Origin: a virus | Length of the DNA stretch: 64,000 nucleotides | IMG/VR virus record: IMGVR_UViG_3300042452_000984 | Location: 18,632 to 82,631 of that record | Strand: one strand, 5' to 3' | Part shown: positions 2,757 to 58,501 of the stretch, one piece after another | Layout of the letters: each line of letters begins with the position of its first letter | How positions within the stretch are numbered: position 1 is the first letter of the stretch | Program-made: the position numbers and the translations under genes | The notes under the pieces: generated by a model | The model's input: the letters and a program-made list of their open reading frames with translations, nothing else | The model's database searches: none | What the model was told of the DNA's origin: nothing

Positions 2757-2986
2757 CCAACCTCAACCGCCTAGTTGACTTAATGCGACAAGCCCGACAG
2801 CGGGCAGTATCGGAGCGATCGCTAGTCATGCCCACTAGCTACTCATCGCGCCGTGGCGTTTCCCATGCTTTTCTCTGTTTGAACTGCAAGTTCTACAACC
2901 CTACCACCCAAGCTTACTTGCGGTGTGCGGTTCACCCTGAAGGGCCGAAGAGCGATACCTTCTGCACTGACAAGGAGGAGCGATGA
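2753..2986 (+). CDS. DUF6464-like Cys-rich protein
   Basis: CKFYN...YLRCAVHPEGP...C motif. Confidence 0.7.
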   Translation: MTNLNRLVDLMRQARQRAVSERSLVMPTSYSSRRGVSHAFLCLNCKFYNPTTQAYLRCAVHPEGPKSDTFCTDKEER

Positions 2987-3525
2987 GGAGACTGTTATTG
3001 CTCGACCACACCGCCCTGGTGCAGCACCGGAATGGCCCCGGTGTCTACATCAACAACCGGGACAATATGACATTGGTTCCAGGCATTCTAGGCGCCCTGG
3101 AGCCCTACGTTGACAGGAACTACAACGTCGCCATCTGTAGCAACCAGGGCGGCGTCGAGAAAGGCCACCTAGCGTTCGGTGCTTGCCAAAACCTATTCGG
3201 TGAAATGTTCAAGCTGTCCAACTATTGGGTTCAGGCCATTTGGTTTTGCCCCCTAGCCCGGGGCAGCACCGGCAGTTATGCCATTCAAATGACGATGCCC
3301 TACGAACCCAAGACCTATACCAAATGCCAAAAGTATGCCACCACCGGCTACCGGATGCCCCAGGCGGGCATGATTTTGGCCGCCATGGACTGGTTTGGGG
3401 TAACGCCTGAGCAGACCACCATGGTGGGCTTACAGCCGGAGGCTTACTATGCCGCCGCTGATGCAGGCGTCAAAAAGTTTGTCCACAGTTCGTACTTTGT
3501 TGAAAAAGCGGGAGTATTGCAATGA
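2983..3525 (+). CDS. HAD-IIIA (GmhB/PNK-phosphatase-like) protein with degenerate active site
   Basis: SNQGGV, FCP, R-x-P-x-x-GM and MVG motifs present; several catalytic residues substituted. Confidence 0.75.
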   Translation: MRRLLLLDHTALVQHRNGPGVYINNRDNMTLVPGILGALEPYVDRNYNVAICSNQGGVEKGHLAFGACQNLFGEMFKLSNYWVQAIWFCPLARGSTGSYAIQMTMPYEPKTYTKCQKYATTGYRMPQAGMILAAMDWFGVTPEQTTMVGLQPEAYYAAADAGVKKFVHSSYFVEKAGVLQ

Positions 3526-4640
3526 AATTTACAGTAGATGCGGGTGATCTGGCAGAGGCGATCGCGCTGTGCGATCGCGCTATCCCTAAGCGCCCTAGCC
3601 GCCCTATCCTGGGCCACATGCTAATGCAGCTAGACAATGGCAGCCTTACCCTAAAAGGGTTTGACGAGGCGCTAGGGATTAGCTTCTCGTTGCCAGTGGA
3701 TATGGAGCAATCCGGTGATTGTTGCATATCCCCAACCTACCTAAAGCCCATCCTGGAGCGCCTATCCGGGCAGGTGGCCTTAGACCTGCAATACCCTGTC
3801 CTGGTGCTAACCACCCTGGGCGCCGAGTACCGGATTAACACCCTCCTGGCTGAGGACTACCCCAACTTGCCCGAGGTGGACGGTACCCCGGTGGAGTTGT
3901 CTATCTCGTCAGAGGAACTACGAGCCGCGATCGCGGCTACGGTGTTCTGCGCCAGTACTGACGAAAGCAAGCAGGTACTTACCGGCGTTCACTTCTCCGT
4001 TACCCCCGGCGAAGGGGGGGAGGCAGGGGTGATGGAGTTAGCGGCCACCGATGGCCATCGGATGATCGCCTACCCGCTACCCGGTAGCGTTGTCATCCCC
4101 GATGACTATCGCCCCGTCACCCTGCCCGGGAAGAGCCTGCGGGAACTGCTAACCGTCCTGAAGGGCGAGGGTGCCGTCAAGCTGACGTTTGATGACGTGT
4201 CTGTGCGTGCCCTATGCGGGGACACCGAGCTCTATAGCCGGGTTATCGAGGGGCAATACCCCAACTACCGGCAGCTATTCCCCAAGGTGTTCTCTAAGGT
4301 GGCGACCTGCGATCGCAAGCCATTCTTAGCCGCCCTCGATCGCACCTTGGTGGTGGCCGGTGAAAACAAGGACATCGTTAAGCTGGAGTTTGACACCACT
4401 GGGCTGGTGATGAGTGCAGAGGCAAAAGAAGCGGCCAAAGCTCAGGAACATGTCGAGGGCGTAACCTGTAGCGAACCCATCACCCTAGCGGGGAACGGTA
4501 AGTACATCAAGGAGGCGCTAACCAATGCGATCGTGGGTGAAACCTTCACTATGGAAATGAATAAGCCAGAAAGCCCAGTGGTTTTTACAGATGGGTCCCC
4601 GGCGACCTATTTAATGATGCCCATTCAGATTAGGGGTTAA
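3522..4640 (+). CDS. dnaN: DNA polymerase III beta sliding clamp
   Basis: 372 aa; RPILG, STDESKQVLTGVH, ATDGHR, GQYPNY, YLMMPI motifs. Confidence 0.95.
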   Translation: MKFTVDAGDLAEAIALCDRAIPKRPSRPILGHMLMQLDNGSLTLKGFDEALGISFSLPVDMEQSGDCCISPTYLKPILERLSGQVALDLQYPVLVLTTLGAEYRINTLLAEDYPNLPEVDGTPVELSISSEELRAAIAATVFCASTDESKQVLTGVHFSVTPGEGGEAGVMELAATDGHRMIAYPLPGSVVIPDDYRPVTLPGKSLRELLTVLKGEGAVKLTFDDVSVRALCGDTELYSRVIEGQYPNYRQLFPKVFSKVATCDRKPFLAALDRTLVVAGENKDIVKLEFDTTGLVMSAEAKEAAKAQEHVEGVTCSEPITLAGNGKYIKEALTNAIVGETFTMEMNKPESPVVFTDGSPATYLMMPIQIRG

Positions 4641-4642
4641 CC

Positions 4643-4822
4643 ATGGACCTACAGCCCGGTTACGCGATCGCCTATCGTCCATCCACGGAAGAGCCCTGGC
4701 AGCAAGCGTCTGTCTTTGCGGTCATTGGCGACAAGGTGATGGTTAAGTTGCCCCTGGGCGGCAACACGTCCAGAATCGTCACGGTGGACATTGACAGTGG
4801 TTTGATAGGGCCACCGTTCTGA
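4643..4822 (+). CDS. Small beta-rich hypothetical protein (59 aa, not in ORF track)
   Basis: MDLQPGYAIAYR...GLIGPPF fills the gap; stop overlaps next ATG (TGATG). Confidence 0.65.
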   Translation: MDLQPGYAIAYRPSTEEPWQQASVFAVIGDKVMVKLPLGGNTSRIVTVDIDSGLIGPPF

Positions 4823-5562
4823 TGCAGGAGTTTTACATAGGCTGGCATCAGCCCGTCAACGGCCTGTCTGGCTGCGGGGATTTTCCCCGGTGCATGGTGT
4901 CAGTCAATCGACTTCTAAGGCGTCGCTCTCCCTTCCCGGTTCAGTCCTGGATATTGGATAGCGGCGCTTTTACTCGCATTGCTGGCGGACAAGGGCACCT
5001 GCCATTAGAAGACTATGCCAAAGAGATCCGGCGATGGGCAAAAAACGGCAACCTTGTGGCAGCTGTGGCACAGGACTATATGTGTGAACCATTTATCCTT
5101 GGCAAGACCGGGCTAACAATCCAAGACCACCAACGGCTAACCATAGAGAACTACGATCGCCTGCTTGCCCTAAATACCGGCGTCTATATCATGCCAGTAT
5201 TACAGGGCTACTCTCCCGCTGACTACGTTAGACACCTGCACGATTACGGCGATCGCTTGCACCATGGACAATGGGTAGGGGTGGGTTCTGTCTGCAAGCG
5301 AAACAGCAACCCTGGGGCAATTGAAGCCGTCTTGATGGCGATTAAGGCGGCCCGCCCCGATCTGAGGTTGCACGGGTTTGGCGTTAAGAAGACCGCCCTA
5401 GAATCTTCAATTGTGTGGGACTTACTTTACTCAGCAGACAGCCAAGCCCATAGCTTTGCAGCACGGATGGAGAACCGAAACGCCAATTGCCCAAAGGTTG
5501 CGCTTAATTACGCCAAAGGCATCGGCAGCCCCTTGCAGGCATCCATATTTTCAGCGTTCTGA
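4822..5562 (+). CDS. TGT-fold (queuine tRNA-ribosyltransferase/DpdA-like) transglycosylase
   Basis: ILDSGAF, QDYMCEP, MPVLQG, GVGSVCKR, LHGFGVK, SADS motifs. Confidence 0.8.
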   Translation: MQEFYIGWHQPVNGLSGCGDFPRCMVSVNRLLRRRSPFPVQSWILDSGAFTRIAGGQGHLPLEDYAKEIRRWAKNGNLVAAVAQDYMCEPFILGKTGLTIQDHQRLTIENYDRLLALNTGVYIMPVLQGYSPADYVRHLHDYGDRLHHGQWVGVGSVCKRNSNPGAIEAVLMAIKAARPDLRLHGFGVKKTALESSIVWDLLYSADSQAHSFAARMENRNANCPKVALNYAKGIGSPLQASIFSAF

Positions 5563-5573
5563 TGCCGCACCCA

Positions 5574-5615
5574 AAACAAAACACCCCGGCCAAATGACGA
5601 CCGGGGTGTTTTGTT
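5574..5615. terminator. Bidirectional terminator
   Basis: AACAAAACACCCCGG ... CCGGGGTGTTTTGTT between convergent genes. Confidence 0.85.
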
Positions 5616-5627
5616 GCTTGGATGACG

Positions 5628-5897
5628 CTATTCAACCTCAGCCTTCCTAAGAGCTTGCCAAATGTCTTGAAAATCAGTCTCTTCCTCAAGGTTAATAGGC
5701 TCGCACTCTTCTAACGCGGCTAAAGCTTGGGCGGCATAATACTCGCCAGAGGCGTAATCGTCAAAGATTTTGATAACAGTAGGGCTTACGTTTTCGGCCA
5801 TTAACCCAGAATAGGGATTAACGTTTGTGTCAGCATTTAACCGAGAAAAAGCTTGATTGATTTGAGTGGCATAGTCAGCAGCAGTAGCAGTAGTCAT
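5628..5897 (-). CDS. Hypothetical protein with its own promoter (moron-like)
   Basis: GGAG RBS before MTTATAADY. Confidence 0.65.
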   Translation of the reverse strand: MTTATAADYATQINQAFSRLNADTNVNPYSGLMAENVSPTVIKIFDDYASGEYYAAQALAALEECEPINLEEETDFQDIWQALRKAEVE

Positions 5898-5929
5898 AAT
5901 TGGTAACTCCAAGTGGTTCAACAATTTCA

Positions 5930-5958
5930 ATAGTAAAAGACCTTTATCGTATTGTCAA
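5930..5958 (-). promoter_or_regulatory. Sigma70 promoter
   Basis: TTGACA-17 bp-TACTAT on the minus strand. Confidence 0.75.
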
Positions 5959-6079
5959 CACTTTTCGATAAATTAGTTAAACCGTCGCGATCGCGTGTCA
6001 ACCCAACCATTTCTCGAACCTACGCTAAGATAGGCATAGCGTAGGCATAATTTATTTTTTCCTAGTCCGTATCTCCTCC

Positions 6080-9000
6080 ATGGTTCTTCCTCTGGAGGCT
6101 ATCCTGTCCAAGTCAGCCGATATGGTTGTGGGCGGGGTAGCCTCCAATTTTTTTAGAGATCTTGACGGCGATGCCATTTGCCCGGACGCGATTCAACGCG
6201 CTATTCCTGGCTTCATGGCAACCCGTGGCCCGGACGGGCTAAAGGGTGGCCCCATTCGCCTGCACCATGGTTTTTGGGAGCGATTTCTAAAGCAGTCCAT
6301 CTCTGCCCTTAATATTCCCTACGACCAGCAAGTGGGGCTACTTGCCGCGATCGCGCTCCCCCTGGGCCGGGTGACTGAGATGAGCGTTGATAGCGATGGC
6401 ACTACGCGTTGGCGGGGTGTTCTATCTGGCGCTAACCCCATCGCCCGGGTGGTGTGGAATATGCTCAAAGAGGGCATGGTTCACCTTGGCGTTAGCGTTG
6501 GCGGCAAGATCAACGGTGTACGCCCCGGTAGAGATGCGATCGGGCGGACCTGTAACCTAATTACCGACGTGCGGCTCGATGAGCTCAGCATCACTGACAA
6601 CCCAGCCAATCGATTAATTGAGTCCGAGACCCCCGACAATGGCGCGTACATTACCGCGCTTGCTAAATCTGTGGGTAATACCATGCTCGCTCAGAAACAA
6701 CAGCCTTACATCTACCTGAATGGCATCGCCTATACCGCTCACCCTAGCGAGGAACATGGCATTGTCCTACGCAAGGCAGGACGGCGGCGGGCACCCTCCC
6801 CGGGCCAGCTAGGCTTGTTTGGTGGGCACAATGAGGGCGATACCAAGGTAGAGGACGGTGTTACCTATCGGCTAAATAGCAATAGCCGGTGGGAGCGGAT
6901 GGATAAACCCAAGGCCAGCGGTAAGCCGTCTGGCGGGAAGAAGAAGGCGGAAAAGCCTGCGATCGTCCCGGTGGTGGAGGCGGAGAAACGAGCAGAGACA
7001 CCAGCAAAGGCAAAAGCGGCTAAGCCGAAGGCAAGACGACAAAAGGAGCCAAAACCATATCTAGAAGATCAAAGCCCTTCATTATTGGCGGCAGAGCTAG
7101 ACAAAATTAAGAATTTTCTGGCATTGGCTGATGCTGGACTTGTAAGCATAACTCCCAGAAAGCGCAAGCAAACCGAGGCTTACCTGAAGCAGGTCAAAGA
7201 CGCACTTTTTGAAATAACCAAGCCTGACGACGACGCGCCAAGCATGTCTGACAACGATCTCCTGCAGGAGCTAGGCGTAGCAGGCATGTCTGACGACGAC
7301 CTTATGCGAGAGCTAGGCGTTGAACCCGCCGCCCAGAACCCCGAACCCACCGTTGGCGAAATGCTGGAACAGCAGCAAGCGGAGATAGCTGAGTCGAAAC
7401 CAGTTATCTCAGGCAGGCAATTTGTCGAAGAGTTTATTTCCGCCTGGAATGACACCCATGGTTCAGAGTGGAACCGCGATGCTGCGGGGTACACAAAGGC
7501 CAAAATATGGGACAAAAAAGACGGGGAGATCCGGGTTTACTTTGGCTCCGTTAAGCAGCCATTGGTTTTCAGAAAGCAAGATAATGGCGAATACGTCGCC
7601 GCTGTAACCCCTGGTAAGTATGGACTTGACGAACAAATCGCCCCTATCCTTGACGATCTAAATTCACGGTTTTCTACCAAGCCTGAAAGCACTAAGGCTG
7701 ACCAAGGCTCTGCCGGAACCCAGCAACGAGTATTGATGCAAGAAGACGAAGACGGCGTTGTTGCACCTGCAGGACAACACGAACGTGGCGTCCATATCGT
7801 GCGGGAATGGTACGAGTCAGAACCATCTCCCAAGCCCACCGTTGGCGAAATGCTGGAACAGCAGCAAGCCGCGATCGCGGATGAGCCTATGCCTGAGAGT
7901 GAGGCGATGGAGGGGGCGGAGGATGGTGCGGCACCCACATGGGAAGACGTGCCTCAACTTTTTGAAAGCGGTGACTACGAAAAAATCCCTCAAGCCCTAG
8001 GAGTAGATCCTAGATATGGGCTGTCCCCGAGTCAGGCGTCTAGGTTTCTAAACATCCTTGGAATAAAAGAAGCTAAAGCCAAAAAGATTCTTGGGCAGGG
8101 CTACCTAGAGCAAGAGCGAAAAGAATACCCAAGCATTCAACCCGATCCCGATCCTAAACGCTACTACGATCTTGATAAGCTCGTTGACGCCATTAACGAG
8201 GCAAAGGCGTTTAAGGGAGTCAAGGCGCTGCAAAAACCTAAGGCAGAGCGCCCTAAGCGCGAACTAAAAGAAGAAGAGCTTACGCTAACGGATAATGACT
8301 GGAAGAGGCTAGCCAAGCTAAAAGGCGCCATGCCTTTCTCACCAAATTTTCTAGGTGATGGAGTTGGTGCGGAAACCTACTATTGGGTGCCAAATCATGC
8401 AATAAAAGACGCCGAATACCTAAAAAGAAAGTTAGGTTTTTATATAAAGCGCGATTTTAGCTGGAACAGAATAGAAGGCGCCAACTTTGTTATGCGGGAA
8501 GACGTCATTGATAATGTACTTGGCTACATTATTAAACCTAAATCCGAGCCCGCCGCCCAGGACCCCGAACCCACTCTCACCAAATCTCTCACCCCCTCAC
8601 TCCCCATGACTATCGATAACTTCCTCCGCAAAGCCCTGGGTAATCCTGGGCGTGAGTTTGGTTCTGGCTCATGGCGGGATACGGGCATCCCGGCGATGGG
8701 CCGTAAAGTTGACGCCAAAAGCCCGCAGCCCAAGGGCGGCAAAAAGGTACAAATGGATGAGTCCGGTAGTGCCCATGCCGGTAAGGGTATCGGTGGCAAA
8801 CAACCCAAGGCCCATCGCCCCTACTCTTCCGGCGGCATGCCCCCCACCGATGTATTTGGTATCACCATCACCCAACTAACCCGCAACTTGGCCAAAGCCT
8901 GCTACATGGACAAAGATGCCTGGGGTAGCCCGGAGACCGTTTCTTTCTTGACCGACAGCGCCAGGGCGATCGCGGGCATGACTGACACCCCGACCGACCC

Positions 9001-9244
9001 GATGGTGAACTTTGTCCGGTTTTTGCAATACTGCACCCGTTTCGCCCAAGAATTGCCGTTTATGAACGACTACCAGGCGGCGGGGACGGTGAAGGCGATG
9101 AATGCCGACCTAACCAAAGCGCTGGACGAATTCGTAGAGAAGATGCCTGAGGAGCTAAAGGGAAAACCTTTGCGCCCTGCCGGTTCACCCGGCGTTGTGG
9201 GCATCGACGTTCAGTTTCCCCAACAGTACGTTATTTACTCCTAG
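6080..9244 (+). CDS. Prohead protease (HK97-type) fused to a large modular insert and a C-terminal domain
   Basis: N-terminal GVAS..RDLDGD, IRLHH, GVSVGG, LDELSITDNPAN protease motifs; then about 600 aa of repeat-punctuated insert. Confidence 0.85.
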   Translation: MVLPLEAILSKSADMVVGGVASNFFRDLDGDAICPDAIQRAIPGFMATRGPDGLKGGPIRLHHGFWERFLKQSISALNIPYDQQVGLLAAIALPLGRVTEMSVDSDGTTRWRGVLSGANPIARVVWNMLKEGMVHLGVSVGGKINGVRPGRDAIGRTCNLITDVRLDELSITDNPANRLIESETPDNGAYITALAKSVGNTMLAQKQQPYIYLNGIAYTAHPSEEHGIVLRKAGRRRAPSPGQLGLFGGHNEGDTKVEDGVTYRLNSNSRWERMDKPKASGKPSGGKKKAEKPAIVPVVEAEKRAETPAKAKAAKPKARRQKEPKPYLEDQSPSLLAAELDKIKNFLALADAGLVSITPRKRKQTEAYLKQVKDALFEITKPDDDAPSMSDNDLLQELGVAGMSDDDLMRELGVEPAAQNPEPTVGEMLEQQQAEIAESKPVISGRQFVEEFISAWNDTHGSEWNRDAAGYTKAKIWDKKDGEIRVYFGSVKQPLVFRKQDNGEYVAAVTPGKYGLDEQIAPILDDLNSRFSTKPESTKADQGSAGTQQRVLMQEDEDGVVAPAGQHERGVHIVREWYESEPSPKPTVGEMLEQQQAAIADEPMPESEAMEGAEDGAAPTWEDVPQLFESGDYEKIPQALGVDPRYGLSPSQASRFLNILGIKEAKAKKILGQGYLEQERKEYPSIQPDPDPKRYYDLDKLVDAINEAKAFKGVKALQKPKAERPKRELKEEELTLTDNDWKRLAKLKGAMPFSPNFLGDGVGAETYYWVPNHAIKDAEYLKRKLGFYIKRDFSWNRIEGANFVMREDVIDNVLGYIIKPKSEPAAQDPEPTLTKSLTPSLPMTIDNFLRKALGNPGREFGSGSWRDTGIPAMGRKVDAKSPQPKGGKKVQMDESGSAHAGKGIGGKQPKAHRPYSSGGMPPTDVFGITITQLTRNLAKACYMDKDAWGSPETVSFLTDSARAIAGMTDTPTDPMVNFVRFLQYCTRFAQELPFMNDYQAAGTVKAMNADLTKALDEFVEKMPEELKGKPLRPAGSPGVVGIDVQFPQQYVIYS
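7242..8574 (+). repeat. Direct repeats delimiting domains inside the protease insert
   Basis: 35 bp identical 7346-7380/7835-7869; 29 bp (2 mismatches) 7322-7350/8546-8574; tandem MSDxDLxxELGV 7242-7320. Confidence 0.9.
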
Positions 9245-9259
9245 CTAGGTAACTAGAAA

Positions 9260-10084
9260 ATGGACCCACAAACCCTACAAGCCTTGATGGGAGTATTCCA
9301 ACAAGGCTTACAAATTCTGCAATCTGCCCAGGCGGGTGCCGGCGCGCCCCCTACCGCTGGTGCCCCCGCCGCCAATGGTGCCCCCGCCGCCAATGGTGCG
9401 CCACCCATGGCCGCCGGTGCCCCTCCCGCCATGGACCCCGACGACGAGGACATGGAAGAGGATGACGAGGACATGGATGCCCCCGATGCCATGGATGCTG
9501 ATGATGACGAAGACGACATGGACGACAGCGGCATGGGTGGTTCCTCCCTGCACGATCGCGTCAGTCAGCTAGAAAACCACACCGGCCTTAAGAAAAGCGC
9601 CCGGGGTGGCTCCTTACTTGATGCCGTCGCTGCCCTCGAAGAAACTATCCTTGGCACCGAATACGAAGGTCCCCTAGTAGATCGCGTCAACCAATTAGAG
9701 AAAGCGGCAGGTATCAGCCAACGCGCCCAGGACCAAGCACCGGACGAAATCCCGCTAGAAAACTTGATCAAAAGCGCGATCGAATCCGGCATCCAACAAG
9801 CCATGGCAACCCGTGACCCGGAGGCCAACGAAGACCCGGACGCTATCCCCGACCTACGCCAGATGCGCAAAGCAGCCAAGGGCCAGCGTTATGGCAGTCG
9901 TAAGGGCGTCGCTGGCGCGATCGTCAGTGATGAGGACCTGGTAAAGAGTGCTGCCAGCCTTGGCTGGGACGGCGATGACCTGGACCGCCCCGTGTCCTTC
10001 GGTGATGCGCTGTTGCTGCAATACCATTCACAACAAGCGGGTGAGCCACTGCCATTTTCAGCCGATGAGGCTGACGACGATTAA
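9260..10084 (+). CDS. Capsid scaffolding protein
   Basis: Between protease and capsid; low-complexity acidic and coiled segments; 18-bp GAPAAN tandem repeat. Confidence 0.65.
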   Translation: MDPQTLQALMGVFQQGLQILQSAQAGAGAPPTAGAPAANGAPAANGAPPMAAGAPPAMDPDDEDMEEDDEDMDAPDAMDADDDEDDMDDSGMGGSSLHDRVSQLENHTGLKKSARGGSLLDAVAALEETILGTEYEGPLVDRVNQLEKAAGISQRAQDQAPDEIPLENLIKSAIESGIQQAMATRDPEANEDPDAIPDLRQMRKAAKGQRYGSRKGVAGAIVSDEDLVKSAASLGWDGDDLDRPVSFGDALLLQYHSQQAGEPLPFSADEADDD

Positions 10085-23695: not shown

Positions 23696-23794
23696 AGCAA
23701 ATTTGCAACCCTATCGCCAATCTGCGCGAACCGATAGTATCCTAGAACTAGGGTGGGCATCGTCTAATCAATAGCCCTACAGCTTTCCAGAAAA

Positions 23795-24586
23795 ATGCAC
23801 CAGCTAGCCCTGTTCAATACCATTGACAATAAGCCAATGGCCGACGATCGCATCCGGTTCTACCGTGGCGACGCGATCGCGGTCCTGAAGCAACGGCTAG
23901 CGGCAGGCGATCGCTGGGACTATTGCCTTACCTCCCCTCCCTATTACGGCCAGATAGACTATGGCCACGAAGGGCAACACGGGCTAGAGGATAGCCTAGA
24001 CGCCTACCTGGATACGTTGCAGCAGGTTTTTAGGCTGGTATACCAGGGGTTAGCCGAGGGCGGGGTGTGCTGGATTGTGATAGGCGATACCAGCAACAAC
24101 TACAGCCCGATACGCGCCAAGGGACAACGGCGACAAGCAGGAGAATGGCTCTACCGCCGTAGCCTGGAGGACGACTACCGCGAGAAAGAACCCTTACTGG
24201 TGCCTATCCGCCTGGCGGAGCGACTACGGGCTGATGGCTGGGTAATGCGGAAGATATTGATCTGGGATAAGGGTCAAAGTAGCCAGGTGGGCAAGGGTGA
24301 CGCGCCACCGGAAACCCATGAATATGTCCTGATGCTGGGCAAAAGCGGCAAAAACGGGCGGCCGATGCTGAACGCCAAGCCACTGCGATCGTCGGTGTTG
24401 GTACATCGCCCCTGTGGCCATCCTAGCCACCCCTGCCCATTCCCTGACTCGTTAGTCCACGAACTATTGTCTAGCGCCACAGTGGCCGGGGCGACGGTGC
24501 TAGATCCTTACTTTGGCACCGGCACCACCGGACGGGTAGCGTCCCTGCTTGGCATAAAGTCTATCGGCATTGACCTAGGAGCATAA
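23795..24586 (+). CDS. Beta-class DNA methyltransferase (probably N4-cytosine)
   Basis: TSPPY, HPCPFP, LDPYFGTGTTG. Confidence 0.9.
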   Translation: MHQLALFNTIDNKPMADDRIRFYRGDAIAVLKQRLAAGDRWDYCLTSPPYYGQIDYGHEGQHGLEDSLDAYLDTLQQVFRLVYQGLAEGGVCWIVIGDTSNNYSPIRAKGQRRQAGEWLYRRSLEDDYREKEPLLVPIRLAERLRADGWVMRKILIWDKGQSSQVGKGDAPPETHEYVLMLGKSGKNGRPMLNAKPLRSSVLVHRPCGHPSHPCPFPDSLVHELLSSATVAGATVLDPYFGTGTTGRVASLLGIKSIGIDLGA

Positions 24587-25332: not shown

Positions 25333-26136
25333 ATGAAAATTTATACCCTTGCCGGGGTGCCCTATATCCCAGTGGTGACCGCTGGGGGCATTGTCCTAAG
25401 GAAAGCGGGACGACGGCACCAAGTGTCGCCAGGGCAGTTAGAGTTATTTGACACCCAACACCAGCAGGGCGAAACCCGCACCAACCAAGCGGGCCACCAG
25501 GAGGTGCTGCAAGAGGGGCGGTGGCACCTCGCTAACAGGACTGGACAGCCACAGCAGCAGCCAACAAAGAATCCTGCCACAATGCGATGGCACGTTACAG
25601 CGGCAGGAGATTTAATCCGGGAGAAAGGCTTTCAAGTTGGGCTTGGCGGTGGAGCGGGCGGTCCTCTGTCCGGCAAAGGCATTTCAGTTTGGAAAGACAA
25701 ACAAAAGGCAGATCAATTTCACAAGCAAATGCAAGAACTTGAAGACATAAGGTCTTCGGGTGATCCATTAAAAGCGGCAGAAGCTGCCACCAACCAGCCA
25801 ATTAGCTTAACTGACGGTATGGCAGGGCTGTGGGCTGGAAAGTTAGGACGCGCACTAGACTCCCGAGAACGTGCAATCATTCATGCTCAGTCGCTACTCA
25901 GCCCATACATACCGCCTGACTCGTTCTTTGGAGATGGGCCAAGGAGAAAATTTGAAAATCTCGCCGTCCATGTTTCCTCTGAGTCGCAAGAAAATAGCGA
26001 TGGATGGGTTAATGATGACGAAGAATTGCATAGTCCTGAAAAGGTAAAGCTGGCACAACCGCAGCAGCCAACGCTCACCATAGAAGGACTCCATGCTCTA
26101 CGCCAACAAGTTGCCCAGGAGTTAGCTAGTGGATAA
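25333..26136 (+). CDS. Putative head-packaged protein with ADP-ribosyltransferase-like domain
   Basis: Leader shared with the protease insert; WHVT...I.EKGF...GKGI and DG....E...PEKVK. Confidence 0.5.
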   Translation: MKIYTLAGVPYIPVVTAGGIVLRKAGRRHQVSPGQLELFDTQHQQGETRTNQAGHQEVLQEGRWHLANRTGQPQQQPTKNPATMRWHVTAAGDLIREKGFQVGLGGGAGGPLSGKGISVWKDKQKADQFHKQMQELEDIRSSGDPLKAAEAATNQPISLTDGMAGLWAGKLGRALDSRERAIIHAQSLLSPYIPPDSFFGDGPRRKFENLAVHVSSESQENSDGWVNDDEELHSPEKVKLAQPQQPTLTIEGLHALRQQVAQELASG

Positions 26137-43712: not shown

Positions 43713-44900
43713 ATGCAATGGTTTCGTTTTTACAGTGAATTTAGATGCGACCCCAAGTTGTCATTGATGACCCCTCACCACCAGTGGGCTTTCATCATCC
43801 TCCTATGCCTTGCTTCAGACAATTCAGAACGAGGAAGGATTGACAACCTGACCGACGAAGAAATTGCCTACCAAATCAGAATGCCGGTCGAGGACTGGCA
43901 AACCTTAAAAGCTAAATTCAAAGTAAAAGGCATGATCGATTGGGATGAGACGGGAATCAAGATCACCCATTGGGCAAGACGCCAGTTTGAATCTGACAAC
44001 TCCACCGAAAGAGTGCGAAAGCACCGTGAACAAAAGCGTTTAGCTACAGCTACGACAAAAGAAACGGGAGTGAAACGTTTCAGTAACGTTAATGCAACGC
44101 CCCCAGATACAGATACAGATCCAGATTCAGATCCGGAGATCGTTAAAAATCTATTAGAAAGTTCTATACCTAAGTGTCCGGAACCGAACATCGAGCCGCT
44201 TTGTAGCGCTGACGCGCTACGCGATCGCGTTTCTGAAGAAAAACATTCAGAACCCGAACCGGCTAAACAGGAAACAGCCGATACCTTTCCCCCTCTGGAT
44301 AGCCAGGTAGAAAAACCTGGGGCTCAACCAAAACCCCGGACAAGAAAAAAATCTGGCGGCAGCGCGCGAAAAATTAGCACACCCAAAAACCATCCCGAGC
44401 AGTTTGATGCTGCATGGGATTCCTACCGCAAGTTTTGCATAGCCGTAGAGAGCACTGTCGCCCTCTCTCAGGCGCGCAAAGAGGCTGTTAGGGAGTGGGA
44501 CAAGCTAATAGAGGGCGGAGACGCCTTAGAGGCGATTCTGGACGGGCTGAACTTCTACATGGAGGTAAAGCGGGTTGAGCATCAACGCAAAGGGGAAGCG
44601 TTTGGCATTTCCCACTTTTGCCGGTTTCTGTCTAACCGCAAATGGGAGGCCGCGATCGCCTACCGCGAGCAAAAGCGATCGCAGCCCGCCCCCGCCAAAG
44701 ACATCACTGCCAACGTCCACGCGGACCTGCAGGACATCACCGTCCTGCTACGTCAATTAGGCCGCTCCGCTGTGCTGCCCCCCGAGTGGCAGGAACGCAC
44801 CGGCAAAACCTTTACCCGCCAGTTGGACGCCGTTGAAAGCGACGACTATGTCGCCTACCTCAAGGGCGAACTAGAGCGTCTTGCTGTGGCCAATCCGTAG
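43713..44900 (+). CDS. Replication initiator (replisome organizer)
   Basis: MQWFRFYSEF..DPKL, W..RQ.ESDNSTERVRKHR, PPDTDTD linker. Confidence 0.85.
   Translation: MQWFRFYSEFRCDPKLSLMTPHHQWAFIILLCLASDNSERGRIDNLTDEEIAYQIRMPVEDWQTLKAKFKVKGMIDWDETGIKITHWARRQFESDNSTERVRKHREQKRLATATTKETGVKRFSNVNATPPDTDTDPDSDPEIVKNLLESSIPKCPEPNIEPLCSADALRDRVSEEKHSEPEPAKQETADTFPPLDSQVEKPGAQPKPRTRKKSGGSARKISTPKNHPEQFDAAWDSYRKFCIAVESTVALSQARKEAVREWDKLIEGGDALEAILDGLNFYMEVKRVEHQRKGEAFGISHFCRFLSNRKWEAAIAYREQKRSQPAPAKDITANVHADLQDITVLLRQLGRSAVLPPEWQERTGKTFTRQLDAVESDDYVAYLKGELERLAVANP
44060..44140 (+). repeat. Iteron-like repeats in initiator gene (candidate origin)
   Basis: GAAACG/GTAACG/GCAACG repeats, palindrome TGAAACGTTTCA, CAGATA/CAGATC repeats. 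Confidence 0.5.
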
Positions 44901-44962: not shown

Positions 44963-45496
44963 GTGATACCGATGAACCATAATCCGTTGGAGCCCGAAGA
45001 GCTGCGATCGCTGATGGCGACGCTGTGCGAAGCTCAGGGCTGGCGCCCTATTAGTGATGAGCTTTTGCAGCAATTTTGGCGGGAGGTTAAGGATATTTCT
45101 GGGCATGAGGTTATCCGCATGTTCGGGAACTCTATGGCAACGCCATACCTGAAGCCTGCCATGTTGCTAGATGGGCTTAAGCAAGAGCGCCGCCGACTGC
45201 TTGAGGAGCAGGTGGCTAGTGTCCCTAGTGGGCACAAACGTTACGCGGACATGTCGCCTAAAGAGCAGGCTGCCTATATGGCGGCTCAAAAGCTGGCAAG
45301 GGACAAGCTTAAGGCTGATTTGGCTAGTTTGTACCAACAAGGCAAAATCCCTACTACTCGTGTAGGAGGGTTTAGCAGCCTTGCTGACGTATTAGTCCGC
45401 AGTGGTCCTCACCGTGGCGAAAGCCTGATGGACGAAGTTATCGCGGAGGTAGAAGCCCGCGATCGCCTGGAGGCCGCTGGTGGATCGTTTAGATGA
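44963..45496 (+). CDS. Hypothetical protein (helicase-loader position)
   Basis: Follows initiator; AGGAGG RBS. Confidence 0.5.
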   Translation: MIPMNHNPLEPEELRSLMATLCEAQGWRPISDELLQQFWREVKDISGHEVIRMFGNSMATPYLKPAMLLDGLKQERRRLLEEQVASVPSGHKRYADMSPKEQAAYMAAQKLARDKLKADLASLYQQGKIPTTRVGGFSSLADVLVRSGPHRGESLMDEVIAEVEARDRLEAAGGSFR

Positions 45497-45746
45497 TTTT
45501 TTGGCACGTATCCAGTGCAATTTTAAGATGGCAACCCAGTTGCTAAATCAGGATGCTGCCAAAGTCGAGGGTTACATCTATCGGGTAGCTGTGCGCTCCA
45601 TTGTCCTTGAGGACGGTGTAAGCGAGGAAGAAGCTATCCAACGCCTGCAGGGTACATCCCCCATGGGTCAACTGTCGCTGATGTCCTACGAGGCATTAGA
45701 GGCACTTGACCGCAAATTTCAATCCGTTGTGGAGAGTTTTTTATGA
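45480..45746 (+). CDS. Hypothetical protein
   Basis: 88 aa; contains QLSLM. Confidence 0.55.
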   Translation: MDRLDDFLARIQCNFKMATQLLNQDAAKVEGYIYRVAVRSIVLEDGVSEEEAIQRLQGTSPMGQLSLMSYEALEALDRKFQSVVESFL

Positions 45747-56596: not shown

Positions 56597-58501
56597 TTAG
56601 ACGGCTAAATCGCCAAAAATGCTTGGCTGTTGATGTTCTGGCAGATTAAGCAAAGGATCGCTATCCAAAAATTGTTTTTTCTTTTTTGAATCAAACTGAA
56701 TTTCCCATATAGTCTTAAACTGTTGCTGAAGAGGGTTTTCTAGGCAAGCTTTAAGCTTTTCTATGTCTTCCCAAGATGTATCGTAAATTTCAGTCCACAG
56801 CCATTTGAAGAAAATCTCTTTTTGAATAAGACATCTAGCTCTTTCATGGCTGCAACCTATCCGACCGTTTTTATTAGATACAGTTATGCCGATGCTGTAA
56901 CACTCCCTAACCCTGCCTACACGTTGCATATCGGCAAATATGATATAAACAGCAGGATTGAAAAGCTTAACAGGCTTTCTCCCGTCCCAACAGTGCCAGT
57001 TTGGCAGGCCAGAGGGAGTAAACATAGGGGGCAACCCGAACTTTTCAACTATTTCATTGGATCTTGTCGTGCTAGGAGCAATCCCTGCAAACTCTCCATC
57101 TATTGACTGGACAGAGAACGGTTGAGCCTTTTTAAGAGCTCTTTCAAAACGATACTCCATGTTGTTGTCTGCTTGAGCAAGGCGTTGATCAATCTGATCA
57201 ATCCGATCATAAAGCGAAGTGTGAGCCAGATCGCCGGTTGGTATTGTGTCTAACTGCCTATTCCTGCCGTTGTCAGCGGCTTGCTTGACCATAGCGGGGA
57301 TGCTCTGAATTAGCCGTATAGTGGCATCACGAACGGCTCGACCCATCTCACCCTCGCTTATCCAGGACATCCGCAACACCCCGGCCATGTTGTAGATGTT
57401 GGCTTGAGAGATGTATTTAGGCAAAGAAGGCTTCCCAGAGGCTACCAACTCTGAGTTGGTAGCCTCCCGGAAGTCCCTCAGAGCGTGACTTTCAAGCTTT
57501 TGGACCTCCCCAGCCTCTATAAATTCATCCCTGTGTCTCTGGAAATTTCTATCAAGCGCTCTAGAAGAAAGCCCTAAAAACGCTGCAACCTCGTTAGTGG
57601 TCATCCATTTGGTGTCTTGCCATTGCGCCCAAAATAGGTCTTTAATGTTCAACTCGCTAAAAACCTCTTCCATGGGGCGGCTATCGCCAAAGCCCGCCAT
57701 AGCGGATTGCCTGGATTGCTTCTTGGTGTACAGGTCGATAGCGCCTGGGGGTTCAACAACCTCCGCCGCCACCTCAGCAGGGGGCTCAACAATCTCCGCC
57801 ACTATAACGGGAGGCTTAATCGACTTAGCCTCAGCGACAGCCGGGGTAGGCTCTGGCTTGCTGTGAGGGTTTACACAGTAGTAGGTCGTAAACCGATCTT
57901 TCCAAGTATGCAACCTTCCCTGGGCCAGCAAAAGATCTCTTCGAGGAACAACATATTCTTGAAAACGTTTCCTATCTGGTCCGCTAGTCCTAGCCTTCTT
58001 GTACAAAACTTTTGCTGTAACCGGATGGCTAGCACACTCCAAAATCCTTTGATCAATAATTTCCCAGATCTCTTCTTTAGTCTTTAAACTAAATGAGAAC
58101 TTTTTGGCGCGACGATTTGATCTAGTTGCTGGCTTGGCCGCAGCTTGCTTAACTTCGACAACCGGCTCAGTGTTCTCTGGTAGCAGCTTGAACAATGGCA
58201 GAACCGGTTGCTCAGGAGCTTTGTCCCAACATAAAACCTTGTAGTTGCCTTTTCCTTTGGGAGGCTGCATGTAAGGGAAAATCAATTCGATTTGTTGTTT
58301 TGTATACCAACTGCCATGGGCTCGCGCAGAAATGATGATGTCTTTGATTAGTTGCGGCGTGCTGTTCAGCTTTTCTACCGTATTCAACGCACGACGAACA
58401 AGCTCAGCGCTTGGATGTGCCCGTTCTGCTTTGGGCATCACATAAATAACCCAGGAAAGATCCTCGGGGGAATATAGACGATCTTCAGAAGAAGCGTTCA
58501 T
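56597..58501 (-). CDS. Multidomain antirepressor-like protein with ORF6N-type domain
   Basis: MTTNEVAAFLG...NFQRHRDEFIE...KLE...LRDF...GVLRM. Confidence 0.65.
   Translation of the reverse strand: MNASSEDRLYSPEDLSWVIYVMPKAERAHPSAELVRRALNTVEKLNSTPQLIKDIIISARAHGSWYTKQQIELIFPYMQPPKGKGNYKVLCWDKAPEQPVLPLFKLLPENTEPVVEVKQAAAKPATRSNRRAKKFSFSLKTKEEIWEIIDQRILECASHPVTAKVLYKKARTSGPDRKRFQEYVVPRRDLLLAQGRLHTWKDRFTTYYCVNPHSKPEPTPAVAEAKSIKPPVIVAEIVEPPAEVAAEVVEPPGAIDLYTKKQSRQSAMAGFGDSRPMEEVFSELNIKDLFWAQWQDTKWMTTNEVAAFLGLSSRALDRNFQRHRDEFIEAGEVQKLESHALRDFREATNSELVASGKPSLPKYISQANIYNMAGVLRMSWISEGEMGRAVRDATIRLIQSIPAMVKQAADNGRNRQLDTIPTGDLAHTSLYDRIDQIDQRLAQADNNMEYRFERALKKAQPFSVQSIDGEFAGIAPSTTRSNEIVEKFGLPPMFTPSGLPNWHCWDGRKPVKLFNPAVYIIFADMQRVGRVRECYSIGITVSNKNGRIGCSHERARCLIQKEIFFKWLWTEIYDTSWEDIEKLKACLENPLQQQFKTIWEIQFDSKKKKQFLDSDPLLNLPEHQQPSIFGDLAV

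What the first reader, a model, noticed from the sequence alone, without database searches (positions are those of the whole stretch)
3522..4640. Private beta-clamp with clamp-binding motifs on modification and cargo proteins
Seen: a full dnaN with no polymerase or clamp loader in the window. QL[x]LF-like motifs sit at exposed positions: MTase N-terminus MHQLALF (23801), protease insert QLGLF (6806), ART-like protein QLELF (25435), TGT-like C-terminus QASIF, antirepressor C-terminus QPSIF, ORF45480 QLSLM. Known: QL[SD]LF is the beta-clamp binding consensus. Inference: the clamp is a platform that couples protective DNA modification to replication and recruits injected proteins to DNA.
Basis: partly seen in the sequence, partly recalled or inferred. 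Interest (0 to 1): 0.7.

Follow-up and report, generated by a model that had tools for sequence, protein, structure and literature searches.

The report
Phage sliding clamp and docking peptides
A virus of cyanobacteria carries its own copy of the ring-shaped sliding clamp used in DNA copying, and its DNA-modifying enzyme and several capsid-packed proteins carry the short peptide that normally hooks proteins onto that ring, which suggests DNA protection is tied to DNA copying, although no binding has been measured.

Summary
Window 3522-4640 encodes a full bacterial-type beta clamp (DnaN). The 82.6-kb virus record shows no Pol III alpha, PolA, PolB or clamp loader.

The DpdA tail (QASIF) is a degenerate copy of a family-wide C-terminal peptide, typically P-x-Q-L-S-I-F. 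It occurs in 91 of 120 relatives, in a floppy tail, and matches the beta-clamp-binding consensus QL(S/D)LF.

Three of the four QLxLF hits are paralogous copies of one capsid-cargo leader. There the motif lies in a low-confidence linker and is kept in 26-29 of 37 distant relatives.

The methylase QLALF is a lineage-only N-terminal extension. QPSIF and QLSLM have no support beyond being present.

The "private clamp as platform" reading is only partly supported. None of 44 other DpdA-carrying viruses has a clamp, and one close relative has the clamp but no DpdA. So the peptides are aimed at beta clamps in general, normally the host's. Accessory dnaN does sit beside dpdA in two other, unrelated genomes.

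No binding was shown. This scan had already noted clamp-docking tails on DpdA in other DNA. My searches of the held paper library found no paper that links DpdA to a clamp.

The parts
2983..3525 (+). HAD/PNK3P-like 180-aa gene, first gene of the coupled operon; its stop overlaps the dnaN start (ATGA)
   Evidence: Weak Pfam PF08645 match, E 0.0066, below cut-off. No PHROG match. Overlap read.
3522..4640 (+). dnaN: beta sliding clamp, 372 aa, diverged from cyanobacterial DnaN (35-39% identity) with a conserved peptide-binding cleft
4643..4822 (+). orf59, a small ORF between dnaN and dpdA; its stop overlaps the dpdA start (TGATG). It is kept next to the protease gene in relative G002, which lacks dpdA.
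4822..5562 (+). DpdA-family DNA-guanine transglycosylase, 246 aa
   Evidence: PF23859 E 5e-37. AF2 model mean pLDDT 90.9.
5536..5550 (+). DpdA C-terminal QASIF, a degenerate copy of the family-wide P-x-Q-[LM]-S-I-F tail. Best-supported clamp-binding-motif candidate.
   Evidence: Q239 invariant and P237 at least 90% conserved in 41 sequences; the tail after the last helix, 224-233, is coil; the last block has pLDDT 66.
6080..9244 (+). 1054-aa prohead-protease/cargo polyprotein carrying the leader (hairpin, LRKAG, QLGLF, RW module) at residues about 207-285
6806..6820 (+). QLGLF inside the cargo leader of the protease polyprotein
23795..24586 (+). N6/N4 DNA methyltransferase, 263 aa, with a lineage-specific 14-residue N-terminal extension
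   Evidence: PF01555 E 2.5e-29.
23801..23815 (+). QLALF at residues 3-7 of the methyltransferase
   Evidence: Kept in 4 of 4 lineage members. G001 shows two synonymous changes in the Q and L codons and has unrelated DNA upstream of the ATG. Absent from the homologues outside the lineage.
25333..26136 (+). 267-aa free-standing cargo protein that starts with the leader
25435..25449 (+). QLELF in the linker between the hairpin (strands 4-24) and the RW module (strands 48-66)
   Evidence: AF2: block 31-40 has pLDDT 54, while the flanking modules have 88-97.
56597..58501 (-). 634-aa anti-repressor-like protein ending in QPSIFGDLAV (QPSIF at 56629-56615)
   Evidence: PHROG anti-repressor E 5e-6. The motif is kept in the one relative available, which is 90% identical. 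This is not informative.
45480..45746 (+). 88-aa ORF with internal QLSLM (45669-45683); no evidence beyond presence
   Evidence: No Pfam or PHROG match.
43713..44900 (+). DnaD-like helicase loader / replication initiator. It indicates that the phage recruits the host replisome.
   Evidence: phrog_10469 E 1.3e-14; weak PF09681 match.

Best explanation
The ORF is a genuine, full-length bacterial-type beta sliding clamp. It is carried by a temperate virus that has no polymerase of its own and whose clamp is closest to those of filamentous cyanobacteria. The virus has a serine recombinase and a DnaD-like initiator. The clamp has diverged to 39% identity or less but keeps the cleft that binds QL(S/D)LF-type peptides, so it should work with the host Pol III and clamp loader and with any clamp client.

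The clamp gene is translationally coupled to dpdA. DpdA's floppy C-terminal tail carries a clamp-binding motif that is conserved across this DpdA family. The most likely mechanism is that DpdA docks on beta clamps left on newly replicated DNA and exchanges guanine for a 7-deazaguanine base there, which would make the modification replication-coupled. In most phages with this DpdA the clamp must be the host's. In this lineage the phage adds its own clamp, probably to enlarge the clamp pool.

A second conserved QLxLF lies in the disordered linker of the leader shared by three capsid-cargo proteins. It is probably also a clamp-docking peptide. The methylase has gained an N-terminal QLALF in this lineage only.

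Shown: the gene identities, the motif positions, their conservation and predicted disorder, and the operon structure. Inferred: binding to any clamp, which clamp is used, and the consequences.
For: Clamp:
- Three Pfam domains above cut-off.
- The closest non-kin relatives are named cyanobacterial DnaN at 35-39% identity.
- The cleft segments ATDGHR, EGQYPNYRQL.PK, N..Y, SP and YL.MP.QIR are 32 of 45 identical to the consensus of 36 other clamps, against 110 of 317 for the rest.

Operon: ATGA and TGATG overlaps link HAD-like, dnaN, orf59 and dpdA.

DpdA tail:
- Of the 120 listed relatives (55-98% identity, out of 5,927 hits), 40 have Q[LM][SD][LI]F in the last 30 residues, 60 have a slightly wider pattern and 91 have Qxx[LIMV][FWLMY].
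- The two stricter patterns occur in 0 of 120 protein bodies.
- Q239 is invariant and P237 is at least 90% conserved in a 41-sequence alignment.
- The tail after the last helix (224-233) is coil with lower pLDDT.
- The cultured Sinorhizobium phage phiLM21 DpdA ends in QMEMFA.

dnaN next to dpdA elsewhere:
- This occurs in 2 of 80 bacterial genome loci.
- In Calothrix a domain-III remnant lies upstream of a DpdA that ends in QLSLF.
- In a Dehalococcoidia MAG a full dnaN lies downstream of a DpdA that ends in QPAML.
- Each of those genomes has three DnaN domain-III matches, so these are accessory copies.

Leader:
- Of 43 cluster representatives whose match spans hairpin to RW module, 32 have Q[LMF]x[LI]F and 35 do when longer variants are counted.
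- Without the 6 own-lineage representatives the figures are 26 and 29 of 37.
- The background in the same proteins is 13 per 65,353 residues.
- The motif sits in a pLDDT-54 coil between two confident beta modules.
- The Dps cargo has the hairpin and the RW module but no QLxLF, so the motif is not needed for whatever the leader itself does.

Precedent: phage Mu MuC binds the E. coli clamp through an N-terminal QHDLF and a C-terminal QPDLF, and L-to-A changes abolish binding (PMC12867686, passages read). The consensus QL(S/D)LF is taken from PMC9690074 (passages).
Against: - No binding data exist for any of these peptides.
- The window's own DpdA motif departs from the consensus at position 2 (QASIF).
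- DpdA and the clamp are separable. 0 of 44 other DpdA-bearing virus records have DnaN, 0 of 76 non-kin IMG/VR loci and 0 of 80 metagenome loci have DnaN in their flanks (only 24 of the 80 metagenome loci are 8 kb or longer), and relative G002 has the clamp but no DpdA.
- The tail motif is far from universal in more distant DpdA: 32 of 76 IMG/VR copies and 33 of 80 genome copies, with only 1 of 18 in genomes labelled cyanobacterial.
- Both extra dnaN-dpdA cases show decay. Each has an in-frame stop or frameshift in dpdA, and one has only a clamp fragment.
- Three of the four QLxLF hits are paralogues.
- The MTase extension is seen in 1 of 120 listed homologues, and its start codon is not proven.
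- The leader motif could equally serve capsid assembly.
Confidence: 0.55

Rival explanations
1. The clamp is only a replication accessory. A polymerase-less temperate phage brings extra processivity factor to favour replication of its own DNA by the host Pol III. Its position next to dpdA is incidental, and the motif-bearing proteins use the host clamp or none.
For: - No polymerase or loader in the record, and a DnaD-like initiator is present.
- DnaN-like genes occur in 172 phage records.
- 0 of 44 other DpdA-bearing viruses have a clamp.
- G002 keeps the clamp without DpdA.
Against: - Translational coupling of dnaN, orf59 and dpdA.
- dnaN lies next to dpdA in two further unrelated genomes, against about 0.24 expected among 80 loci. 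That expectation is my own rough estimate.
- The cleft is conserved much more than the rest of the protein, although the polymerase and loader also use that cleft.
Confidence: 0.25
2. The QLxLF in the cargo leader is not a clamp ligand. It is part of the capsid-addressing or maturation machinery, for example a contact for scaffold, portal or the prohead protease next to the LxK[AS] sites. Its likeness to the clamp motif is coincidental.
For: - The motif always lies just downstream of the hairpin and the LRKAG-type putative cleavage site, and upstream of the RW module.
- It travels with that leader as a cassette between cargo genes.
- RW-only matches in long polyvalent proteins mostly lack it: 2 of 30 have it.
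Against: - The Dps cargo and 5 of the 43 spanning relatives have the hairpin and RW module without the motif or a close variant.
- The distance from the motif to the RW module varies from a few residues to about 50.
- The variants seen (QMSLF, QLDLF, QMDLF, QLSIF and six-residue forms) follow the clamp consensus closely.
- Some proteins carry two copies (P0134, P0182).
Confidence: 0.3
3. The phage clamp is a buffer or decoy. The phage floods the cell with clamp-binding proteins, which would starve the host replisome of free clamps. The extra clamp prevents that, or alternatively it soaks up host clamp clients.
For: - At least five phage proteins carry candidate motifs.
- Overproduced MuC is lethal through clamp binding and is rescued by co-expression of hda and dnaN (PMC12867686 abstract).
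- The phage depends on host replication.
Against: This is purely inferential. Expression levels are unknown, and the many DpdA phages without a clamp manage without one.
Confidence: 0.15
4. All the motifs are chance matches to a short degenerate pattern.
For: - The loose pattern Qxx[LI]F is only about twofold enriched, and 12 of 300 shuffles reach the observed count.
- QPSIF and QLSLM have no support from conservation.
Against: - The family-wide conservation of the DpdA tail and of the leader motif is far above background.
- 0 of 300 shuffles give four QLxLF.
Confidence: 0.03

Closest known systems
Bacterial beta-clamp clients with the QL(S/D)LF clamp-binding motif (polymerases, MutS, Hda and others; review PMC9690074, passages read)
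   Same: A five-residue Q-hydrophobic-[S/D]-hydrophobic-F peptide in a terminal or linker region outside the folded domain, and a clamp with a conserved cleft.
   Different: The carriers here are a DNA-guanine transglycosylase, a capsid-cargo leader and a methyltransferase. None of these is among the clamp clients in the review passages I read. No binding has been shown.
Phage Mu MuC/Mor, which bind the host beta clamp through an N-terminal QHDLF and a C-terminal QPDLF (PMC12867686, passages read)
   Same: A phage protein with near-consensus motifs at residue 2-3 of the N-terminus and at the extreme C-terminus. This parallels MHQLALF on the MTase and QPSIF on the anti-repressor-like protein. 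It also couples a phage process to replication through the clamp.
   Different: Mu uses the host clamp for late transcription. Here the candidate clients are DNA modifiers and cargo proteins, and the phage also brings its own clamp.
Eukaryotic Dnmt1-PCNA coupling of maintenance methylation to replication (as described in PMC9690074)
   Same: A DNA-modifying enzyme tethered to the sliding clamp, so that new DNA is marked behind the fork.
   Different: A different clamp family and motif (the PIP box), a different chemistry (base exchange rather than methyl transfer) and a viral setting.
Phage-encoded DnaN-type clamps (172 phage records with a match, for example Synechococcus phage S-H1, Nodularia, Arthrobacter and Mycobacterium phages)
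   Same: A bacterial-type beta clamp carried by a tailed phage.
   Different: All are under 30% identical to this one. Here there is no phage polymerase or loader in the record, and the gene is coupled to dpdA.
Clamp-docking tails on phage DpdA noted earlier by this scan on other DNA (e1-5756890 and e1-5908420 for beta-type; e1-5983881, e1-5772749, e1-5370378 and others for gp45/PCNA-type clamps)
   Same: DpdA ends in a floppy, conserved clamp-ligand-like peptide.
   Different: Those are unchecked AI notes on other phage groups, mostly with T4-type clamps and the phage's own polymerases. Here the motif is the bacterial QLSIF type in a small DpdA subfamily whose phages mostly lack any clamp gene.
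Polyvalent or capsid-delivered proteins of phages (Iyer et al. 2017, PMC5512222)
   Same: Multidomain cargo with recurrent small modules. The RW module found here also occurs inside proteins of 1,000-3,200 aa.
   Different: That paper's main text has 0 occurrences of 'clamp' or 'sliding'. A clamp-type peptide in a cargo leader is not described there.

Membership tests
Beta sliding clamp (DnaN) | Three tandem beta-clamp domains in a protein of about 370 aa | tested here: met
   PF00712, PF02767 and PF02768 all match above cut-off across residues 1-367. Full-length alignment to 55 solved clamps, best E 2.5e-30.
Beta sliding clamp (DnaN) | Conserved hydrophobic peptide-binding cleft between domains II and III, including the C-terminal M-P segment | tested here: met
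   The segments ATDGHR, YPNYRQL, N..Y, SP and YLMMPIQIR are kept: 32 of 45 positions identical, against 110 of 317 elsewhere. Which segments line the cleft is recalled from E. coli structures and was not computed here.
Beta sliding clamp (DnaN) | Forms a head-to-tail dimer ring and is loaded by a clamp loader | not testable with these tools
   No loader gene in the record. Loading by the host loader is inferred.
Beta-clamp-binding motif client | Peptide matching QL(S/D)LF or an accepted variant | tested here: met
   DpdA family: QLSIF in 31, QMSIF in 8, and QLSIW, QISIF and others in the rest; 40 of 120 are strictly canonical. Leader: QLGLF, QLELF, QMSLF, QLDLF and others. MTase: QLALF. The window's DpdA copy, QASIF, departs at position 2.
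Beta-clamp-binding motif client | Motif lies in an exposed, unstructured terminus or linker | tested here: met
   DpdA tail 234-246 is coil and the last block has pLDDT 66. The leader motif lies in a coil with pLDDT 54 between two beta modules. The MTase motif is at residues 3-7. The 634-aa and 88-aa proteins were not folded.
Beta-clamp-binding motif client | Motif conserved among homologues while its surroundings vary | tested here: inconclusive
   Met for DpdA and for the leader. Not met for the MTase outside its lineage, where 1 of 120 homologues has it. Uninformative for QPSIF, with one 90%-identical relative. Not tested for QLSLM.
Beta-clamp-binding motif client | Physical binding to the clamp cleft | not testable with these tools
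   Needs a binding assay or a solved complex.
DpdA (DNA-guanine transglycosylase, PF23859) | Profile match above the curated cut-off over most of the domain | tested here: met
   127.8 bits against a cut-off of 27, residues 3-223. AF2 gives an alpha/beta fold at pLDDT 90.9.
DpdA (DNA-guanine transglycosylase, PF23859) | Presence of 7-deazaguanine in the DNA, or of a preQ0 pathway | tested here: not met
   QueC (PF06508) has 0 matches in the record. Only QueC was searched. The base would have to come from the host. DNA chemistry cannot be tested here.
Capsid-cargo leader (hairpin, LxK[AS], RW module) noted earlier in this scan | Shared N-terminal hairpin plus RW mini-module on otherwise unrelated proteins | tested here: met
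   Local similarity links five proteins of this genome. A profile search found 73 representatives. AF2 gives two confident beta modules. Packaging and cleavage themselves were not tested.

The most novel reading that the evidence does not exclude
The virion delivers proteins whose processed N-termini carry a beta-clamp-docking peptide. On injection they would seize the host's sliding clamps, either to place cargo enzymes on DNA or to stall host replication. The phage's own fast-evolving clamp would keep phage replication and clamp-tethered DpdA and methylase working meanwhile. This would amount to a virion-borne system that targets the clamp and also supplies a replacement.
Probability: 0.2. 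Interest if true: 0.85.

Novelty: new variant of a known kind. Interest (0 to 1): 0.6.

Why it matters
7-Deazaguanine modification of phage DNA is said to occur after replication (PMC10516641, passages read). How DpdA finds new DNA fast enough is not addressed in the passages I read.

A conserved clamp-docking tail would give a simple, testable answer. It would also add DNA base exchange, and possibly phage methylation, to the processes that ride on the bacterial clamp. That would be a bacterial-virus parallel to Dnmt1-PCNA.

A clamp-type peptide inside a widespread capsid-cargo leader would be a new idea for what injected phage proteins do first in the cell.

Both ideas can be tested with a few peptides and two clamps.

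Tried and rejected
- Complex prediction: phage clamp alignment A3 with DpdA residues 215-246 from alignment A2. The verdict was 'no answer': score 0.27 against a mark of 0.32, and the controls were not run. It is not used as evidence either way.
I therefore could not inspect the contigs of the closest DpdA relatives (60-70% identity, mostly from Logan assemblies) or of the leader representatives for a neighbouring dnaN. Whether clamp and motif co-occur in those closest clades remains open.
- The metagenome scan returned mainly the 53-64% identity clade and short contigs.
- The search for related loci with the leader used patterns that include the motif itself and found almost only the phage's own lineage. 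It is not usable as a conservation test. The three other records it found are 13-41% complete and have no DnaN.
- Megablast of 3000-9500 against the phage collection found no match. tblastn of the leader against the phage collection found no match. The DpdA profile matched no solved structure.
- I first took the MTase motif to be a mis-called start, because the nearest homologues begin at about the position of Met15. I softened this after seeing that G001 keeps the ATG and QLALF despite unrelated upstream DNA and two synonymous changes. It is still unproven.
- I considered the QLxLF enrichment as independent evidence and rejected that, since three of the four hits are paralogous.
- The supplements of PMC10516641 (the lists of DpdA proteins) and of PMC12867686 could not be opened. 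They may hold DpdA subfamily assignments or motif tables that bear on novelty.
- Claims that something is not in print rest on these searches:
  - DpdA + clamp: 25 papers held both terms, the top 15 were listed, and none of those 15 is about a DpdA-clamp link.
  - 7-deazaguanine + sliding clamp: 10 papers, 9 listed.
  - Clamp-binding motif + phage + methyltransferase: 4 papers, 3 listed.
  - Polyvalent proteins + clamp: 4 papers.
  - Clamp-binding + capsid + bacteriophage: 2 papers.
  - Zero occurrences of 'clamp' in the main texts of PMC10516641 and PMC5512222.
  - For the papers in the search listings I saw only titles and the starts of abstracts.
- The following are recalled and come from no call: E. 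coli Pol II QLGLF, Pol III alpha QADMF, TrfA QLSLF, T4 capsid-targeting sequences, and the E. coli residue identities of the cleft.
Full report
**What the window is.** The window is bases 18632-82631 of an 82,631-bp IMG/VR virus record that CheckV rates 78% complete. Its genes are those of a tailed temperate phage:
- major capsid protein, sheath and portal
- large terminase and a serine recombinase on the minus strand
- a DnaD-like helicase loader/initiator, an HNH/replication protein and a repair exonuclease
- two N6/N4 methylases
- upstream of the window: a 1,665-aa SNF2/ResIII helicase protein, DUF5131, a sigma-70 factor, a 1,000-aa DUF3560/primase-like protein and a Dps-domain protein

**The clamp.**
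- ORF 3522-4640 (+) gives 372 aa with all three beta-clamp Pfam domains above cut-off. It aligns end to end with 55 solved clamps.
- Six-frame searches of the whole record found no Pol III alpha, PolA, PolB or clamp-loader domain. Pol III alpha is also absent from three close relatives that are 72-87% complete. Because the record is incomplete, absence is likely but not proven.
- Apart from its own lineage (92-100% identity), its closest relatives are chromosomal DnaN proteins of filamentous cyanobacteria at 35-39% identity, including Leptolyngbyaceae, Pseudanabaena, Phormidesmis and Halomicronema.
- In a 40-sequence alignment, the segments I recall as lining the E. coli peptide cleft are 32 of 45 identical to the consensus of the 36 other clamps, against 110 of 317 for the rest.
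- Phage-borne DnaN as such is known. 172 phage records match, all under 30% identity.

**Operon.** The stop of a HAD-like gene overlaps the dnaN start (ATGA). dnaN is followed two bases later by a 59-codon ORF, and that ORF's stop overlaps the dpdA start (TGATG). DpdA matches PF23859 at E 5e-37. QueC is absent from the record, so the base would have to come from the host. Only QueC was searched.

**Motifs and chance.**
A seventh, QLGLF, lies in the 1,000-aa protein outside the window.
- QLxLF occurs 4 times in 26,435 residues, against 0.31 in shuffles. 0 of 300 shuffles reach 4 (Poisson 5e-4).
- Three of the four lie in one paralogous module: hairpin, [IV]LRKAG, RR..SPGQLxLF, G[DE]T...RW. Counted as two independent events, P is 0.05.
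- The loose pattern is weakly enriched: 10 against 5.4, with 12 of 300 shuffles reaching that.
- Motifs within 15 residues of a terminus number 3 against 0.64 expected, with 13 of 500 shuffles reaching that.

**DpdA tail.**
- Of the 120 best relatives listed (out of 5,927 hits; 55-98% identity), 91 have Qxx[LIMV][FWLMY] in the last 30 residues, 60 have Q[LMIFV][SDGANTC][LI][FWL] and 40 have Q[LM][SD][LI]F. The commonest forms are QLSIF (31) and QMSIF (8).
- The two stricter patterns never occur in the bodies of these proteins.
- The motif is followed by 0-23 variable residues. The Q is invariant and the P two residues before it is at least 90% conserved in a 41-sequence alignment.
- In the AF2 model (pLDDT 90.9) the last helix ends at 233 and the tail is coil with falling confidence.
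- More distant copies keep it less often: 32 of 76 in IMG/VR and 33 of 80 in bacterial genomes. Only 1 of 18 copies in genomes labelled cyanobacterial has it, and a Nostoc clade carries a different C-terminal extension.
- Among cultured phages, phiLM21 DpdA ends in QMEMFA, mycobacteriophage Validus in PLTLFDVA, and a Microcystis phage copy has no motif.

**Is the private clamp the partner?** DnaN is absent from all 44 other DpdA-bearing virus records searched, 27 of which are at least 90% complete. It is present only in this phage's kin. A local profile search of flanks gave:
- no DnaN next to DpdA in 76 non-kin IMG/VR loci
- none in 80 metagenome loci, of which only 24 are 8 kb or longer
- DnaN next to DpdA in 2 of 80 bacterial genome loci

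The two positive cases are these.
- In Calothrix a 98-aa domain-III remnant lies directly upstream of a DpdA that ends in QLSLF.
- In a Dehalococcoidia MAG a full 386-aa dnaN lies directly downstream of a DpdA that ends in QPAML. A second short contig from that MAG repeats the arrangement.
- Each of the two genomes has three DnaN domain-III matches, so these are extra copies.
- Both dpdA genes carry an in-frame stop or frameshift.

Conversely, relative G002 (clamp 94% identical) has no DpdA anywhere in its 76.9 kb. There the order is HAD-like, dnaN, a 150-aa ORF, orf59, protease, with a C5-methylase-like gene upstream. So the tail is aimed at beta clamps in general. A phage or island clamp next to dpdA is a recurrent but optional addition.

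**Cargo leader.**
- A profile of five leader copies found 73 cluster representatives at E 1e-3 or better among 1.84 billion proteins.
- Of the 43 whose match spans hairpin to RW module, 32 have Q[LMF]x[LI]F and 35 do when longer forms such as QMSLDLF, QMSLGF and QLSFGF are counted. Three more have QMSFF.
- Leaving out six representatives of the phage's own lineage, the counts are 26 and 29 of 37.
- Of 30 matches to the RW module alone, 2 have the motif. The background elsewhere in these proteins is 13 per 65,353 residues.
- The spacing to the RW module varies from a few residues to about 50, and two proteins carry two copies.
- AF2 of the 267-aa cargo gives confident strands 4-24 and 48-66 with the motif (35-39) in a pLDDT-54 coil.
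- The Dps cargo has the hairpin and RW module without the motif.
- Earlier notes of this scan read the leader as a capsid address with LxK[AS] cleavage sites. If so, the motif would lie near the mature N-terminus of the injected proteins. That step is inference.

**Methylase and the rest.**
- Only 1 of 120 listed homologues (97% identical) has the MHQLALF extension. The next 15 (55-68% identity) begin about where Met15 lies.
- All four lineage members keep M[HQ]QLALF. In G001 the DNA upstream of the ATG is unrelated, and the Q and L codons carry synonymous changes. This suggests that the extension is translated.
- QPSIF is kept in the single relative found, which is 90% identical. It resembles the QPDLF of MuC.
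- QLSLM was not examined further.

**Comparison with what is known.**
- The consensus QL(S/D)LF and the Dnmt1-PCNA parallel come from passages of PMC9690074.
- Phage Mu MuC binds the host clamp through N- and C-terminal near-consensus motifs, and this has been tested by mutation (PMC12867686).
- The main paper on phage DpdA subfamilies calls the modification post-replicative and never mentions a clamp in its main text (PMC10516641).
- The polyvalent-protein paper does not mention a clamp either.
- The library searches for a DpdA-clamp link or a capsid-clamp-motif link found nothing relevant.
- This scan, however, had already noted clamp-docking tails on DpdA in at least eight other genomes. 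Those notes are leads, not evidence.

**Verdict.** The most likely picture is a polymerase-less temperate cyanophage whose DpdA, and probably its cargo leader and methylase, dock on beta clamps. The phage's own clamp would be an optional extra supply rather than a dedicated platform. Binding is untested. The one complex prediction gave no verdict (see Tried and rejected).

Noticed in passing
L005 8539-11753 (relative G002): This close relative lacks dpdA. It has a 150-aa ORF between dnaN and orf59, and a 308-aa C5-cytosine-methylase-like gene just upstream of the HAD-like gene. The modification gene next to the clamp therefore seems to be exchangeable.
   Followed up: partly
L139 5618-6939 (Calothrix sp. 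HK-06 contig) and L170 4953-6969 (Dehalococcoidia MAG contig): Accessory dnaN, or a domain-III remnant of it, lies directly beside dpdA in two unrelated bacterial genomes. Both dpdA copies have an in-frame stop shortly after the conserved LHGFG segment. L275 repeats the Dehalococcoidia arrangement with a frameshift instead.
   Followed up: partly
window 25333-26136: Beyond the leader, the 267-aa cargo protein is predicted to be all-helical with low confidence. Nothing in the model resembles an ADP-ribosyltransferase fold.
   Followed up: partly
L002 9877-12879 (upstream of the window): The 1,000-aa leader-bearing protein matches a PHROG annotated as primase (E 1e-31, residues 626-921) and DUF3560. 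It ends with another hairpin-LRKAG copy.
   Followed up: no
L003 5018-5338, L005 4249-4587, L006 816-1154: Relatives carry further cargo genes with an almost identical L[SC]KAGRRR.PSPGQLGLFGG...RWER leader in other gene contexts. The leader appears to move as a cassette.
   Followed up: no
L110 about 1440-1560 (relative G001), equivalent to window 23696-23840: Homology with the window starts exactly at the methylase ATG, and the upstream DNA is unrelated. This marks a recombination joint at the gene start.
   Followed up: partly
L157, L159, L164, L169, L176, L178, L184 (Nostoc and related genomes): A cyanobacterial DpdA clade of about 280-295 aa replaces the QLSIF-type tail with a longer conserved C-terminal extension (..RLPKKYIP....W.E..). 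Its role is unknown.
   Followed up: no
window 4643-4822: orf59 is conserved and stays next to the protease gene whether or not dpdA is present. It has no family match and was not studied.
   Followed up: no
L002 7954-8643 and L170 8532-9347: A DUF5131 gene lies within 15 kb of dnaN in this phage (14.2 kb away) and within 2 kb of dnaN in the Dehalococcoidia island. This may be coincidence.
   Followed up: no
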